A stretch of 63,733 bases of DNA, filler included, from Cercozoa sp. M6MM (taxonomy: Eukaryota > Protista > Endomyxa: Ascetosporea), in NCBI GenBank assembly GCA_040357565.1. It is 9 parts of 9 records of this genome, joined end to end, with 100 filler letters (N's around TTAATTAATTAA, not from the genome) between each part and the next. Parts side by side here need not be neighbours in the genome. Positions count along the whole stretch, not along the records: positions 1 to 19,142 come from JBDODJ010000218.1; 8 more parts are not named here. One strand, 5' to 3'. The notes under the pieces are model-generated. The model did no database searches, was not told the origin of the DNA, and saw only the letters and a program-made list of their open reading frames with translations. This document shows, piece after piece, positions 1-61,388 of the stretch. The position numbers and the translations under genes are program-made. Each line of letters begins with the position of its first letter. The stretch's first letter is position 1.

Positions 1-4
1 AGGA

Positions 5-1639
<1,635 letters not shown>

Positions 1640-9704: not shown

Positions 9705-10991
9705 ATGGCTGGGTGAGTCTCGTCATTGCAGCGTGCTGAGTTCCAATCGGCTTCGTGTCGATTTTTCGTGGGTAGCCCGAAAATTTTGCGCTCCGAATGA
9801 GTATCGTGCTCAGTTCGGTCCCGCAGTGCTGGGAGTGAAGCGGCGGTGCTTGCGCACTGCGTGGCAGCCGCGTGCGACGTGTGTGCCGCCAGTGCAGAAC
9901 TTTTTTTGTTTTGTGCCGGTGTGTTGCCACGCGTCGCGCCGGGCTTGCCTGCTTCTCTCCTGAAGAACCTCCGCAGACCTGTTGATTGGCAGCGCCGAAA
10001 GACAGTGTCGGCAAGCCCACGATCCCTGAGTCCTAGCTTGGCCAGGGGATGCTGTCGTGTGAAGCAAGCGTGTTGGCCATGCCTCCTCTCTTGGGAAGTG
10101 CGTGCCATGCCGCAAGCTTCTCCGATAAAAGAGTAGCGGGAAACCACGGCCTTGTTGTGCCCTCGTGTGTGGTTATCCTTGGTGACTCCCTGATATGCTT
10201 GTGTGTTTTGTGATTGATGCAGCACCACCCCGGAGACGGCTCTCAAGCAGCGCAAGACGCTCGAGCAGATCAAGGCTCAGCGCGATGCCCGCATCGCTGC
10301 CGGTACCGCCTGTCTCGCTGTGTGTGTGTGCTGTTATAATTACCCTACGTCCCCTGCAGGCAAGAAGAAGCGCACGGCCCTGCGCAAGGTTGCCTTCAAG
10401 CGTGCCGAGCAGTACGTGAAGGAGTACCGCACGCAGGAGCGCTCGCTGGTGCGTCAGCGTCGCCAGGCCCGCAAGTTCGGCAACTTCTTTGTCGAGCCGG
10501 AGGCCAAGGTGGCCGTGGTGATCCGCATCCGCGGTATCAACCGCATGCACCCCAAGACGCGCACTGTGCTGCGTCTGCTGCGTCTGCGTCAGATCCACAA
10601 CGCCGTGTTCGTCAAGCTCAACAAGGCCACGATGAACATGCTCAAGCTCGTCGAGCCCTACGTGGCCTACGGCTACCCGAACCTCAAGACGGTCAAGGAG
10701 CTCGTCTACAAGCGCGGTTTCGCCAAGGTCAACAAGCAGCGCATCCCGCTCTCGAACAACCAGATCATCGAGGCCGCTCTCGGCAAGTTCGGCATCATCT
10801 GCGTTGAGGACCTCATCCACGAGCTGTACACGGTCGGCCCGCACTTCAAGGAGGCCAACAACTTCCTGTTCCCGTTCAAGCTGTCGTCGCCGAAGGGTGG
10901 CTTCGCCCAGAAGCGCCGTCACTTCCTCGAGGGTGGCGACTTCGGCAACCGCGAGGAGAAGATCAACGAGCTTGTCCGCAAGATGAACTAA
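9705..10991 (+). CDS. RPL7: 60S ribosomal protein L7 (uL30); exons 9705-9712, ~10223-10302, ~10360-10991
   Basis: ATG GCT GG|GTGAG splices to C ACC ACC CCG GAG ([11 protein letters not shown]); [51 protein letters not shown]. Confidence 0.97.
9961..10029 (+). ncRNA. Candidate box C/D snoRNA (SNORD25/snR56-like guide) in the long first intron of RPL7
   Basis: C-like box TGAAGA; guide CGCAGACCTGTT complementary (one G-U) to conserved 18S AACAGGUCUGUG; D'-like TTGA; terminal D box CTGA; 69 nt; the host intron is ~510 bp versus the usual <100 bp. Confidence 0.5.
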
Positions 10992-11122
10992 GTGTTCGCG
11001 TGCTTTCGACGCCCTTGTCTCCCGTTGCTTAATCGATCCAATTCTAAGCAAACTCTTCAAACTAGCCTCAGTGTAAATGTGGGACTTGCTGATCTGGGTG
11101 CTATCAGCGACACGTCAAGTCG

Positions 11123-11521
11123 GCGACTGAACTGAAGGAACTCGAAGATACTGTGCTCTAAGTGCGGCAATGTTACCGCAGCCTTACAGAAATTGAGGCC
11201 TTGGCAGTGCAAAAAAGTACAGGAAGAGTAGGCCCGGTAGTCAGAAAAAGGAAGGAAGGAGAAGTAGGGCCTCTGGAAAGGCAGAGGACGGGTAGATGCG
11301 GAGACAACTGGTCCCTGGAGAGATCAGATTACCTGGTCGAGAGAGAGAGAGAGCCCTTCTTTGGGTTCAGCTGCAAAAGCTTGCTCAACCACAGGTATTC
11401 CACAGTTTGGACTGAAGCTCTCAGTAGGTCAGGATACCAGCGAACACACGCCAACAACTTCCACACCTCTCTTGAGTTTTTTTGTAAGTCTTAAAATGGC
11501 TTCCGCGCGGATACAGTAGAT
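11123..11521 (+). repeat. Dispersed ~400-bp element, copy A (homologous to 39407-39849 in opposite orientation), ending in TCCGCGCGGA
   Basis: Shared collinear blocks GCGACTGAACTG, GGAGACAACTGGTCC(C)TGGAGAGATCAGATTACYTGGTCGAGAGAG, CTTCTTTGRGTTCAGYTGCAAAA, CTCTTGAG, GCTTCCGCGCGGATACAGTAGAT. Confidence 0.85.
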
Positions 11522-11571
11522 CATGCTGTAACAGCAAACTAACACAACGTTCAAGGCGCCTGACCAGCCGC

Positions 11572-11729
11572 TTACAACGGCAGCAGGAAGGCAATGTTCG
11601 CGGTCTCGCACATGAGCTTGAGCACGCGGCTACCGTCGTCGGCGCGCACCACAGGCCGTAGCACGTGCGTCGCTGTGCGCATTAGTCGGTAGGCACGCAG
11701 CAGGCGCTGCCAGAGCCACTGCGGGGAGG

Positions 11730-36588: not shown

Positions 36589-38824
36589 ATGATGCTGAAG
36601 CGAGTTGCCACGCACGCGTGTGGCCGCCGGCATGCTGCGGGTGCTGCTGCTGCTGCTGCCAAAGAGTCGGCTGGCGTCGAGCTGCCGCCGCTGCCCGAGT
36701 TCGACATTTCGCGCGTACTGATCACTTTCATTTTTTTTGTGTATTACGCTGTATCCGCGCGGACGGTGTAGAACCAAGGTGGAGTCCCAACGTTGAACCC
36801 GATCTGGGTCATGAAGAAACGCAAGATTCTGCCGGTACCCTAAGAACACTGTGGCACAGCTCTGATGGCAAATTGATGTCGATTTCAGTCGCACACCGAG
36901 ATTCGCCTCCTGTCGGCTCCGTCAAATCTGAGTCGTCCTTTGGGTGCTTTACTGTGATTGCTTAACCGTGTACGAAACGACTCACGATGCTTTGGCCTAA
37001 CAGGTGGCGTCCCGCAGACCTGGGTGCACTCGGTGCAGCAGGAGTTCTTGCACGCGCATGAGCAGAAGGAAGCTCCGGCCAAGTCGGTACTTTATCTGCG
37101 CACTATTTGACTGACTAAACGAAGCGAAACTAAAGAAAAACCCTTTTTTTTCAGATGATGGAGCTCTCGCCGGCGCTGTTCAACGTTGATCCAGTTTCGG
37201 CCGAGTTGATTTCGCAGGTGTCTTTCTCTGTCGATGTGATTGCATTGTTTGGGTCACTGTGGTTCTTGACAGGTTGTCACGTGGCAACGCGCCTCGTGGC
37301 GTCAAGGTACGCACGTGACGCGCACGCGTGCCGAAGTGCGCGGCGGTGGAGCCAAGCCGTGGCGACAGAAGGGCACTGGCCGTGCTCGTCACGGCTCGCG
37401 TCGTTCGCCGATCTGGTAGACTTCGCACCCCTTGCTTTAGCCTTGCTTTAACCTTGCTTTAGTCTTCGTATTTGCTTTACTCGCTGAAACATAGGGTGGG
37501 CGGTGGTAAGGCCTTCCCCAAGTACATGCGCGACTACTCGTACGACCTGCCGATCGTGATGCGACAGCAGGTGTGTTGTCTTCTTGCTTTAGACTTTTGG
37601 ATAGATTTGACAGTTTCTAAAAGTTAAAACAATGCTTTAATTGAAACGTGTGCGCGAAAACAGGCGTTGAAGCATGCGCTGACACTCAAGTTCCGCGAGA
37701 ACAACTTGCGATTCGTCGATGCTCTCGAGTTCTCGTGGTAGCTTGACTTTGCCAGCTTTTGACTGACCCTTCATTGCGCACACGAATAGGTTTGACGAGG
37801 CCTACGAGCAGGGTCTGCTCGATCAGTTCCAAACGGCCGAGGATGCCGAGTCTGGCGATCTGGAGGTCTTGCGACAGATGCACAAGCGCGACACGGTCAA
37901 GAAGGTGCTCACGCGTCTGCTGAAGAACACCGATGTCGCCAAGGCTGGGTACTTTGCTACTTAAGCTCTGCTTTCGCTGGTTTCGCATTTATTCAACACT
38001 TCTCACCTCAGACTACACCAAGACGACCGTGTGTTGCTGGTCACTGGTGTGTTTCTCTCACTTGACTGAGCAAAATGTCAGATTGCAAAAAAAAAACGGT
38101 AGGTGGCTCTGGCCAGCCTGAGACGGAGCGACCGCCATGGCAGAAACGTTTTGGCCCGTCTCAACAGCGTGACCCTGTCGTATGATTTCTTCTCGCATCC
38201 TTTCATTATTTTTTGGATTTGAAGAAACGCCCTTTTGAATCGATTATTTGTCTCGAATGAAATAGGATGTGTGCCCGGTGCTGCAAGGTGCCGTCGATGA
38301 CTCGCCTGCCGTTTCTTTGGTGAGTTGTGTCATCCAGTTTTTTTTTTTTGTGTTTTCTTAACGATGTGTGCAGATCAGTGTTGAGGACCTCAACTGCTAC
38401 GACATGCTGCTGCACCGCGTTGTTGTGGTAGGTTTTGCAAATCGTTGCAAGCTGATATGCTTTGTTTACTTGAGGTTTTTAGTTTGTGTGTTTTTTATGT
38501 TTGCGCGAATGATAGTTTGACAAAACGGCGCTGGAGCGACTCGAGGACGATTTGTGCGACAAGATGGTACACAAGAGGAAGTCTTTGTGTGTCTGTGTGT
38601 CTGTGTCTGTCTGTGTGTGCTGCAACTGGAAGTATGATGCAGTTCCTCGAGCGATGGAACGCGGGCGCTCGTCTGAACCGCGCGTTGCAGGTGTGTGTGA
38701 CTTTACCCCCCCCCCCCCCATATTAATCTATTGTTAATCTAACAGGGCATGTTCGCGCGACGTGCCAACTTTGACGAGGCCGACAACTCGCATCTGCGCA
38801 TCGACCTGCCCACCAAGGTATTAA

Positions 38825-38856
<32 letters not shown>

Positions 38857-39271
38857 GTAATCTAGGTATGTGGCTTACATACATGTAATTTAATAGGAGG
38901 AAGCCGAGTGGACCAAGGCAGTCACGGCGCACGTGTCAAATATGGTGTTCGAAGCCGTGGTGCCCAAGGAGATCCAAGAGGTACCCTTGTCTCTCGTGTG
39001 TATCTTTATCGGGAGACTTGACTTAATGAGACTTGAGCAAATGATTGCGTGGCTGTGGCAGCACGTGGCGCCTGCGCACGTCTACCGACAGATGCAGCAG
39101 CAGGCCGACGGCATGCGCGCCGAAGACGGCGACCAGAGCGACTTGATGCTGTACCAGCAGCAGGAGGAGCTGCAGCACAGCAGCACGCTGGACGACGACA
39201 ACAGCGTCACACTGCACGACGTCGAGCGACTCATCCAAGAGCAGTGGCACGGCCTGCCCGACGCCGAGTAG
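36589..39271 (+). CDS. MRPL4: Mitochondrial ribosomal protein uL4m with a long C-terminal extension
   Basis: [48 protein letters not shown]|[16 protein letters not shown]. Confidence 0.88.
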
Positions 39272-39406
39272 ACCAACTGCGCTGCCCCCTGAGGACAGTT
39301 CCTTCAAGTCTAGAATTCTTAGAACTGGGTCGACCTTGTACCATTTGGACAAAGCTAGGACACAGCCGGAGCCACGTAGTGGGCGAGCAATTTGTTGCCG
39401 TACGGC

Positions 39407-39849
39407 ATCTACTGTATCCGCGCGGAAGCAACCCTACAACTTATGAAACCTCAAGAGGGGCATGGTAGATTTTGCAACTGAACTCAAAGAAGAGCTCTCT
39501 CGACCAAGTAATCTGATCTCTCCAGGACCAGTTGTCTCCTCTTCTTCACACCAACTCAAGGACTGCTGAACCCTCACTACCCAGTTCTGACGACGCCTTT
39601 CCGTGAACCCTAACTGACTGTCCTTCCTACTGACAAAAAACACTGACGGGTGACTTTCCCGTCCACCAGTGCTTCGCCGCCCCAGCTGAACCGTTGGGGT
39701 AACTCATTCTTTCAAGTGACACTTGGCCACTCTCCCTCCAAGAACTGACTTTCTTACGTTCCTTAGTTTTTTGTACCACTGACAAACACCCTCAATATTC
39801 ACCAAAGCCTAATCCCTCTCTGAGAGGGCTGCTGTAACAGTTCAGTCGC
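39407..39849 (-). repeat. Dispersed ~440-bp element, copy B (homologous to 11123-11521)
   Basis: The reverse complement shares the ordered blocks listed for copy A, including the terminal GCTTCCGCGCGGATACAGTAGAT. Confidence 0.85.
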
Positions 39850-39885
39850 ATACGTGGCTGCAAGAATAAAACACACTTCGGTAAG

Positions 39886-39933
<48 letters not shown>

Positions 39934-51448: not shown

Positions 51449-52125
51449 CGCATTTGTTTGAGTGCGAGAAAGCTTCAACATGATCGTCTTTCAAGTTTAA
51501 TCTTTCGCTTGCACTCTAAAACGAAACACATTTCGTTCAGGCAAGACAGGCAAACTGAAGCGTGCTATGCCAACCGGTCTTTCCGGTTTGCAAGTTGCAA
51601 ATTGCAACAACACAAGGCTAAAACCGAACAAGGTGAAACGCACTAACTCAGTCGGTGCGGTCCAGGTGTACTATCGATGGAACTGCGTCAATACTTCAGA
51701 CAGACTATGAATCGCCAAAAACTCGTGCGGTTGCTGGTTTAGGGTTAGCAAACAGACACGACAGTCTTCCGCGCGGACGCAGTTGTTCAAACTCAAATTG
51801 ACAAACTGATGCTTCGTTTGACTGACTGGGGGAAGGACAAACTGGTTTGGAAACCCCGACAAACTGAAATATCGATTAACGACTATTGACAAAAAGTGAC
51901 GATCTTGGGTAATCCCAACCCTCGAACTAAGAATTTAGAGTACTGTAATACATTCGAGTCCTCGACTGTCAGGTGTCAACCTTAAATTTAATTGTTTGGT
52001 TTGTCTCAAAAGTGATACATCGGAATCGTTTCGCAGCTGTTTTGAGAAACGCTCTTCGCAGGCGTCAGCCAGCTAGGTTAATTTGACTGGGGTACATCAT
52101 TGTTCCAATCTTAGAGCGTCGAGAC

Positions 52126-60480: not shown

Positions 60481-61098
60481 AGTTCTAAGTTTAGTGCATA
60501 TCTGTGTTCGCAGGACTCAAAGTCACTCAAACTGCGCAGCAGCGATGGCGAGTTGTTCGAAGTAAACGTGGACGTGGCACTGCAGTCCAAGCTCGTCCAG
60601 GCGACGCTTGAGTCGTGCCGTTACTTCTGTGCATCCATGGGGGTACTGTGTGCAACAGCTGTCCCCTCCTCCACAGGGACCGCGAGCACGACGATTTCGC
60701 GATGGAGGTTTCGTCTGAGGTGCTTCGGAAGGTCATTGAGTACATGGAGTACCATCACAACGTAAAACCCTCTTTCGTTGTTTTTTTCCAGACGATGTTT
60801 TGTGTATGTCTTTTGATAGAGACCGGCCAAGTCCATCGCGCAGCCGCTGCGCACGGACCTCGCTGACGTTGTCGAAACGTGTACCGCTTCGTGCTCTTGT
60901 TTCCTCGTTCTGTACGTCAAGCTGTACTCAGGGGACGCCGTCTTCGTCGACGCCGTGTCGCAAGATCGAAGGCTGTTGGAGCTCACACGCGCCGCCAACT
61001 ACATGAACATTGAGCCGCTGCTGCATCTCGCATGTGCCAAGCTCGCCTCAATAATCAAGTGCATGACATTCCGGGCCTGCGACGATGACTGTGCGTGA
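58676..61098 (+). CDS. Unknown multi-exon protein with a C-terminal Skp1 domain (5' end missing)
   Basis: LKLRSSDGELFEV..ALQSKLV, VSSEVLRKVIEYMEYH, LLELTRAANYMNIEPLLHLACAKLASIIK; in-frame phase-0 splice 60412|60514 from the upstream exon. Confidence 0.75.
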
Positions 61099-61307: not shown

Positions 61308-61388
61308 CCTCTTTCGTTTTCGTCTCCGAGACGACGGATGCTGTGTCTGTTGTTTGATAGAGACCGGCCAAACCGATCGGGCAGCCGC
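61308..61388 (+). pseudogene. Decayed duplicate of a Skp1 intron/exon junction (of 60769-60847)
   Basis: CCTCTTTCGTT...TGTGT..GT..TTTGATAGAGACCGGCCAA..C.ATCG.GCAGCCGC is shared. Confidence 0.7.

What the first reader, a model, noticed from the sequence alone, without database searches (positions are those of the whole stretch)
11123..11521. A dispersed ~400-bp non-coding element that terminates in the palindrome
Seen: the RPL7-SQLE convergent intergenic region (11123-11521) and the region downstream of MRPL4 on another contig (39407-39849, reverse strand) share collinear blocks. These include a ~70-bp near-identical core (11300-11378 vs 39470-39539) and an identical 23-bp end, GCTTCCGCGCGGATACAGTAGAT. 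The segment holding the palindrome is perfectly conserved while much of the rest has diverged with indels. I see no TIRs, poly-A tail or ORF. Inference: an unclassified non-autonomous mobile element or structured ncRNA that carries, targets or seeds the palindrome. The site at 51766 (CTTCCGCGCGGACGCAGTTGTTC) and the reverse strand of 36754 (TCCGCGCGGATACAG) resemble this end.
Basis: partly seen in the sequence, partly recalled or inferred. Interest (0 to 1): 0.72.

Follow-up and report, generated by a model that had tools for sequence, protein, structure and literature searches.

The report
High-copy solo-LTR-like mobile repeat
The two look-alike stretches are copies of a many-copy, non-coding jumping-DNA relic in a marine amoeba, most likely the left-over end piece (solo LTR) of a retrotransposon; it carries the palindrome near one end but holds only 2 of the 15 palindromes in this window, so it is an ordinary kind of element.

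Summary
The two stretches are homologous and belong to a dispersed family: in a DNA run that may be the window's own source, 883 and 659 contigs lie on the two loci, with summed depth 12-459 times that of the flanks. Copy A is 11171-11533, not 11123-11521; copy B starts at 39839 (minus). 'No TIRs' is wrong: the ends are TGTTACAGCA...TGCTGTAACA, they fit the published LTR integrase signal TGTTRNR...YNYAACA, and A has a 4-bp duplication (GCAA) on both sides. No support for a structured RNA. Best reading: solo LTRs of an LTR retrotransposon (0.55). Rival: a non-autonomous DNA transposon with short TIRs, moved by a Ginger/IS481EU-like integrase (0.33). No primer site, internal domain or partner was seen, so the class is not settled. 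The palindrome lies inside the element, 23-32 nt from its 3' end; 13 of 15 window palindromes lack element flanks, so the element carries it without explaining it. Ordinary kind; the genome-wide palindrome is the better lead.

The parts
11171..11533 (+). Copy A, 363 bp, both ends present; lies between the convergent 3' ends of RPL7 (stop 10989-10991) and SQLE (stop 11572-11574)
   Evidence: Depth rise in bin 11169-11219 and loose ends at 11533; coordinates; genes by Pfam
11167..11170 (+). Left 4-bp target-site duplication GCAA
   Evidence: Only k=4 matches among k=2..8; chance 0.005 once the ends are fixed
11534..11537 (+). Right 4-bp target-site duplication GCAA
11171..11180 (+). Left terminal inverted repeat of A, TGTTACCGCA (9 of 10 with the right end)
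11524..11533 (+). Right terminal inverted repeat TGCTGTAACA; fits YNYAACA
   Evidence: the same end appears in the loose-end majority of 18 contigs at B
11294..11381 (+). Conserved core of A, with a (GA)n expansion
   Evidence: contigs lacking 6 or 8 bases at 11339
11502..11511 (.). Palindrome TCCGCGCGGA, 23-32 nt from the 3' end of A
39407..39839 (-). Copy B, 433 bp to the last clearly homologous base; 5' end intact, 3' TIR decayed; downstream of a uL4 (MRPL4-like) gene
   Evidence: uL4 motif [15 protein letters not shown] read (the motif assignment is recalled, no Pfam hit was obtained for it)
39830..39839 (-). 5' terminal inverted repeat of B, TGTTACAGCA (10 of 10 with A's right end); fits TGTTRNR
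   Evidence: 4 of the 8 listed pieces stop at 39836-39839, three of them running on into unlike flank (670 pieces not shown)
39467..39545 (-). Conserved core of B
39417..39426 (.). Palindrome in B
   Evidence: none of the 33 listed variants at 10% share or more falls in 39400-39506
39396..39407 (.). Perfect 12-bp palindrome where B's 3' TIR should be; likely the decayed end; no TSD can be read for B

Best explanation
A and B are two copies of a many-copy non-coding repeat with TG...CA ends and a 10-bp terminal inverted repeat, most likely solo LTRs left by an LTR retrotransposon (Ty3/gypsy- or copia-type). Shown: many dispersed copies, the ends, the 4-bp duplication at A, a variable 5' half and a conserved 3' half, the palindrome 23-32 nt inside the 3' end. 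Inferred: a full-length element was reverse-transcribed and inserted by its DDE integrase, which reads the TGTTACA...TGTAACA ends and cuts the target with a 4-base stagger; recombination between its two LTRs then removed the interior, leaving one LTR between the duplicated bases; copies then decayed by substitution and indel (B lost its 3' end). Inferred: the palindrome is a host genome-wide motif that the LTR acquired once and spread with itself; most host palindromes arose otherwise.
For: Multi-copy: 883 contigs on A's stretch and 659 on B's, at all identity bands from under 90% to 99+%; depth steps from about 500-950 in the flanks to 59,000-218,000 (A) and 6,000-234,000 (B), 12-459 times the flank. 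Ends fixed by contigs, not by eye: 23 contigs leave at 11533-11537 with flank agreement 0.39-0.6; contigs stop at 39836-39839 and the loose-end majority at B's other end contains the reverse of A's last 13 bases. B's 5' end and A's 3' end fit TGTTRNR...YNYAACA, the integrase signal of LTRs, with R/U5 more conserved than U3 (PMC3601003, passages). TG...CA ends and 4-6 bp TSDs are the LTR norm (PMC12440569, passages). The inverted repeat stops at 10 bp: no longer one was significant (best 54 of 1000 shuffles), against 40-270 bp for Ginger1 and 50-180 bp for Ginger2 (PMC2836005, passages). Length 363-433+ bp is like a fission-yeast solo LTR of 407 bp (PMC10085805, passages). Class I elements are reported in this organism (PMC13746701, section 7).
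Against: No primer-binding site, polypurine tract or internal domain next to A or B and no shared continuation among the contigs leaving the 3' end (agreement 0.39), so no full-length element was seen. No AATAAA or TATA box on either copy, which animal Ty3/gypsy LTRs have. A's 5' end misses TGTTRNR at position 7. The TSD rests on one copy; B has none. A blind scan finds TG...CA pairs with a 9/10 inverted repeat and a TSD about once per window by chance (2 in the window, 0-2 in each of 12 simulations), so the structure counts only because the contigs fix the ends. The organism's curated library has 10 TIR-only families left unclassified and the main text does not name Gypsy. The summed contig depth is, by the tool's own note, no copy number, and the run may be the window's own source, so it is not independent.
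Confidence: 0.55

Rival explanations
1. A non-autonomous cut-and-paste DNA transposon (MITE-like) with short TIRs, moved in trans by a transposase of the retroviral-integrase kind (Ginger1, Ginger2/Tdd or IS481EU-like); the copies are internal-deletion derivatives that keep both ends.
For: TGTNR ends and 4-bp TSDs are the Ginger signature; IS481EU has TGT...ACA ends, TIRs mostly under 50 bp, 4-bp TSDs and non-autonomous families (PMC10045372, passages). Many contigs skip or replace 38-245 internal bases (15 and 12 listed joints), and A-type and B-type middles are both multi-copy. No full-length LTR element seen. Ten unclassified TIR families are reported in this organism.
Against: TIR of 10 bp is far below Ginger's 40-270 bp. 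GCAA fits neither CCGG/CCGT (Ginger1) nor RTATAY (Ginger2). IS481EU is described from parabasalids only. No transposase found in the window.
Confidence: 0.33
2. The repeat is the source of the genome-wide palindrome: older waves of the element decayed and left the 10-mer behind.
For: Both copies carry it; no listed variant at 10% share touches it in B; site 36754 shares 5 more bases (about 0.03 expected); one-mismatch variants are also enriched, 11 against 2.0 expected.
Against: 13 of 15 palindromes lack element flanks; two lie in the SQLE N-terminal frame; extrapolation gives about 6,400 palindromes in 27 Mb against a few hundred copies by depth ratio, or about 860 by window density; exact copies (15) outnumber all one-mismatch variants (11), which fits active upkeep better than decay (inference).
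Confidence: 0.07
3. A structured non-coding RNA gene family or SINE.
For: Non-coding, multi-copy, with a conserved 80-bp core.
Against: No Rfam match at either copy at E up to 1 (10 matches in the window, all microRNA models; those I could place lie on AT/GT microsatellites); folds no better than shuffles; no tRNA, no B-box pattern, no poly-A tail; TG...CA ends with a TIR are not a SINE anatomy (own knowledge).
Confidence: 0.04
4. A two-copy segmental duplication.
For: Only two copies in the window.
Against: Hundreds of contigs and at least 23 different flanks at one end.
Confidence: 0.01

Closest known systems
Solo LTRs of LTR retrotransposons (Metaviridae/Ty3-gypsy, Pseudoviridae/copia); PMC3601003, PMC10085805
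   Same: TGTTRNR...YNYAACA ends, short inverted repeat, 4-6 bp TSD, about 400 bp, variable 5' half and conserved 3' half, intergenic
   Different: No AATAAA or TATA box; no full-length parent, primer site or polypurine tract seen
Non-autonomous Ginger1 and Ginger2/Tdd DNA transposons; PMC2836005
   Same: TGTNR ends, 4-bp TSD
   Different: TIR 10 bp against 40-270 bp; target GCAA is neither CCGG/CCGT nor RTATAY; no transposase seen
Non-autonomous IS481EU; PMC10045372
   Same: TGT...ACA ends, TIR under 50 bp, 4-bp TSD possible
   Different: Known from parabasalids only; 15- and 25-bp TSD classes not testable here; no transposase seen
The 10 unclassified TIR (class II) families reported for Lemnamoeba sinaloensis (formerly M6MM); PMC13746701
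   Same: Same organism label as protein P0001, which is identical to the window's RPL7 exon; short TIRs, no coding signature
   Different: Their sequences were not in the 4 supplementary files held, so identity could not be tested; that paper's main text has no 'palindrom' or 'MITE'
HIP1 of cyanobacteria (for the palindrome only); PMC13756078, search listing and start of abstract
   Same: A short, strongly over-represented CG-rich palindrome that also falls in coding frames
   Different: Eukaryote, 10-mer, no methylase link tested

Membership tests
Solo LTR | TG...CA ends with short inverted repeat (TGTTRNR...YNYAACA) | tested here: met
   B 5' and A 3' fit; A 5' has one mismatch
Solo LTR | 4-6 bp target-site duplication | tested here: inconclusive
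   GCAA at A (1 of 2 copies; chance 0.005), none readable at B
Solo LTR | Dispersed multi-copy family with unlike flanks | tested here: met
Solo LTR | Same sequence bounds a full-length element (primer site, gag-pol, polypurine tract) | not testable with these tools
   No genome held; contigs' flanks cannot be fetched; none in the window
Solo LTR (animal Ty3/gypsy type) | AATAAA signal and TATA-like stretch | tested here: not met
   Absent in A and B; the feature is not universal, and AATAAA followed only 1 of 5 host 3' regions inspected
Ginger1 / Ginger2 | TGTNR ends and 4-bp TSD | tested here: met
   (TSD on one copy)
Ginger1 / Ginger2 | TIRs of 40-270 bp | tested here: not met
   10 bp; longer repeat not significant
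Ginger1 / Ginger2 | Target preference CCGG/CCGT or RTATAY | tested here: not met
   GCAA, one site only
Ginger / IS481EU | Autonomous partner with integrase-like transposase and the same ends | not testable with these tools
   No genome held
IS481EU | TNT...AYA ends, TIR mostly under 50 bp | tested here: met
   not specific
Structured ncRNA / SINE | Conserved fold, Rfam or tRNA-derived head, poly-A tail | tested here: not met
   covariation not tested (only two full copies in hand)
Helitron / Helentron | TC...hairpin-CTRR ends, insertion in AT or TT, no TSD (features recalled) | tested here: not met
   Ends are TG...CA with a TIR and a 4-bp duplication

The most novel reading that the evidence does not exclude
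A rhizarian non-autonomous DNA transposon with LTR-like 10-bp ends, moved by an undescribed integrase-type transposase, which has captured a eukaryotic HIP1-like palindrome as a subterminal protein-binding site and keeps delivering it to gene 3' ends.
Probability: 0.1. Interest if true: 0.6.

Novelty: new member of a known kind. Interest (0 to 1): 0.25.

Why it matters
Modestly. Rhizarian transposons are barely classified: a recent genome paper on this organism left 10 TIR families unassigned, and this family may be one of them, possibly a solo LTR filed as a DNA transposon. It also narrows the search for the source of the palindrome: the element accounts for 2 of 15 sites in the window. The palindrome itself (15 copies against about 0.1 expected; none of the 20 listed of 27 papers holding the string concerns such a motif by title or abstract start) is the stronger lead.

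Tried and rejected
No genome is held for the window, so no assembly-wide BLAST. Pattern scans: core 21-mer in metagenome contigs 0 hits; end 19-mer 2 hits, both in the same bacterial coding region next to a sigma-factor-like gene, matching the window only over the 19-mer, rejected as chance; viral contigs 0; prokaryote genomes 0. No RNA holder listed; three runs guessed to be RNA have contigs on RPL7 and none on the element, which is no evidence on expression. Longer or bipartite TIR: not significant. Internal direct repeats as in TRIMs: none (465 and 272 of 500 shuffles as good). Helitron reading: rejected by the ends. Sigma-70 promoter/terminator scan empty and not relevant to a eukaryote. 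Other TIR+TSD elements around the remaining palindromes: of 223 TG...CA pairs only A has both a TSD and the palindrome. Earlier scan notes on this DNA or genome: none. Papers: a search for solo LTR + MITE + short inverted repeats + target site duplication + integrase found 0; Cercozoa + Rhizaria + transposable elements + LTR + genome found 3, of which two were read in passages. [quoted passage not shown]

Full report
Setting. The window is a string of about 11 short eukaryotic contigs joined by N spacers (10 gaps), with intron-rich housekeeping genes. An RPL7 exon is identical to protein P0001, which its source labels Cercozoa sp. M6MM. A genome paper describes an amoeba formerly called M6MM as Lemnamoeba sinaloensis: 27 Mb, 10% repeats, 33 curated repeat families, 10 of them TIR-only and unclassified (PMC13746701: passages, section 7 and a term search of 4 supplementary files). 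No whole genome was held.

Observation. The homology is real: core 11294-11381 vs 39545-39467 (E 5e-19) and end block 11452-11521 vs 39474-39407 (E 1e-7), with the identical 23-mer. The left halves align better than 500 of 500 shuffles and 499-500 of 500 window segments. The palindrome occurs 15 times against 0.05-0.1 expected under Markov orders 1-4 and 0.76 under order 5. The 23-bp identity is not special at this divergence (48-86% of simulations).

Copy number and ends. Run X1 (DNA by guess; holds 97% of the words and may be the window's own source) was laid on both loci. On 10200-11725, 883 contigs lay down: 183 at 99% or more, 350 at 95-99, 213 at 90-95, 137 below 90. Depth is 648-723 over most of RPL7 and up to bin 11118-11168, 59,000-218,000 from bin 11169-11219 to 11525, and 945 again after 11628. 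Sixteen contigs leave at 11533, five at 11534, two at 11537, into flanks that do not agree (0.39-0.6). On 39150-39885, 659 contigs lay down; depth is about 500 in the flanks and 6,000-234,000 inside; four of eight listed pieces stop at 39836-39839; 18 contigs leaving B's other end carry in their majority the reverse of A's last 13 bases. The tool warns that summed contig depth is no copy number; the ratios (12-459) suggest the order of hundreds (inference), and the 23 different flanks are a floor.

Anatomy. With those ends, A is 11171-11533 (363 bp) and B begins at 39839 on the minus strand. The ends are TGTTACAGCA and TGCTGTAACA: B's 5' end matches A's 3' end at 10 of 10, A's own 5' end at 9 of 10; A is flanked by GCAA on both sides, the only match among lengths 2-8, chance 0.005. 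B's 3' TIR has decayed into a 12-bp palindrome and shows no TSD. The inverted repeat does not extend. Control: a blind scan finds such TIR+TSD pairs about once per window by chance, so the claim rests on the contig-defined ends. The 5' half is modular: A-type and B-type segments are each multi-copy, and single contigs skip or replace 38-245 bases. The palindrome lies 23-32 nt inside the 3' end; none of 33 listed variants at 10% share touches it in B, though contigs that align there are selected for carrying it. Depth at the palindrome end is about 35-70% of peak core depth (152,000 vs 218,000 at A; 79,000-87,000 vs 234,000 at B), so a large part of the family has it.

Class. TG...CA ends with 4-6 bp TSDs are the LTR norm (PMC12440569, passages). 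LTR ends follow TGTTRNR...YNYAACA, with U3 more variable than R and U5 (PMC3601003, passages); B's 5' end and A's 3' end fit, A's 5' end misses one position. Ginger elements share TGTNR ends and 4-bp TSDs but have TIRs of 40-270 bp and other target preferences (PMC2836005, passages). IS481EU has shorter TIRs but is known from parabasalids (PMC10045372, passages). Against an LTR: no AATAAA or TATA box, no primer site or purine tract at either copy, no full-length element seen. I put solo LTR at 0.55 and a short-TIR DNA transposon at 0.33. It works like an integrase-inserted element in either case; membership of a named superfamily is not shown.

Not an RNA gene. No Rfam match at either copy; both fold no better than shuffles (83 and 97 of 100 shuffles as good); no tRNA in the window. 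Covariation could not be tested with two copies.

Relation to the palindrome. The element holds 2 of 15 window sites. The other 13 show no element flank beyond chance, apart from a weak 5-base extension at 36754; 14056 and 14222 lie in the 181-aa frame that runs into the SQLE FAD-binding motif. Scaling the window's density to 27 Mb gives about 6,400 palindromes against some hundreds of element copies (the window may not be typical). The element therefore carries the motif; it does not target it, and direct seeding explains little. Whether the motif is a binding site that the element uses is untested.

Verdict. I found no description of this family or of the palindrome in the searches named or in the organism's genome paper text, whose repeat library I could not see.

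Noticed in passing
window, 15 sites: 653, 2307, 11502, 14056, 14222, 23185, 26250, 31457, 34265, 35179, 35499, 36754, 39417, 40314, 51768: TCCGCGCGGA is about 150-fold over-represented, also in a coding frame (SQLE) and with a preferred outward extension (G at position 2 in 19 of 30 half-sites, C at position 3 in 15 of 30): a possible eukaryotic counterpart of cyanobacterial HIP1 or a chromatin-protein site. The better lead in this window.
   Followed up: partly
window 10989-11574 and 39269-39900: Both copies sit at gene 3' ends. A lies between convergent RPL7 and SQLE, 38 nt past the SQLE stop; B lies past the uL4 gene and just after what looks like a minus-strand splice acceptor near 39860, so it may be in the last exon or 3' UTR of a convergent gene. 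Two cases only.
   Followed up: partly
window 11166-11180 and 39396-39407: Both damaged ends have changed toward local palindromes (A's 5' mismatch pairs with its flank; B's 3' end is a perfect 12-mer), which could reflect template-switch mutation.
   Followed up: no
window 11499-11532: One contig of run X1 repeats the last 34 bases of the element, palindrome included, head to tail (table 5c).
   Followed up: no
window 60769-60847 and 61308-61388: A second two-copy match (78% over 81 columns) next to a Skp1-like exon; probably tandem paralogues.
   Followed up: no
window-wide: Long (AC)n/(GT)n tracts in introns and at contig ends, and G-rich GGGGTAAA-type repeats; both kinds are reported for this organism (PMC13746701).
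   Followed up: partly
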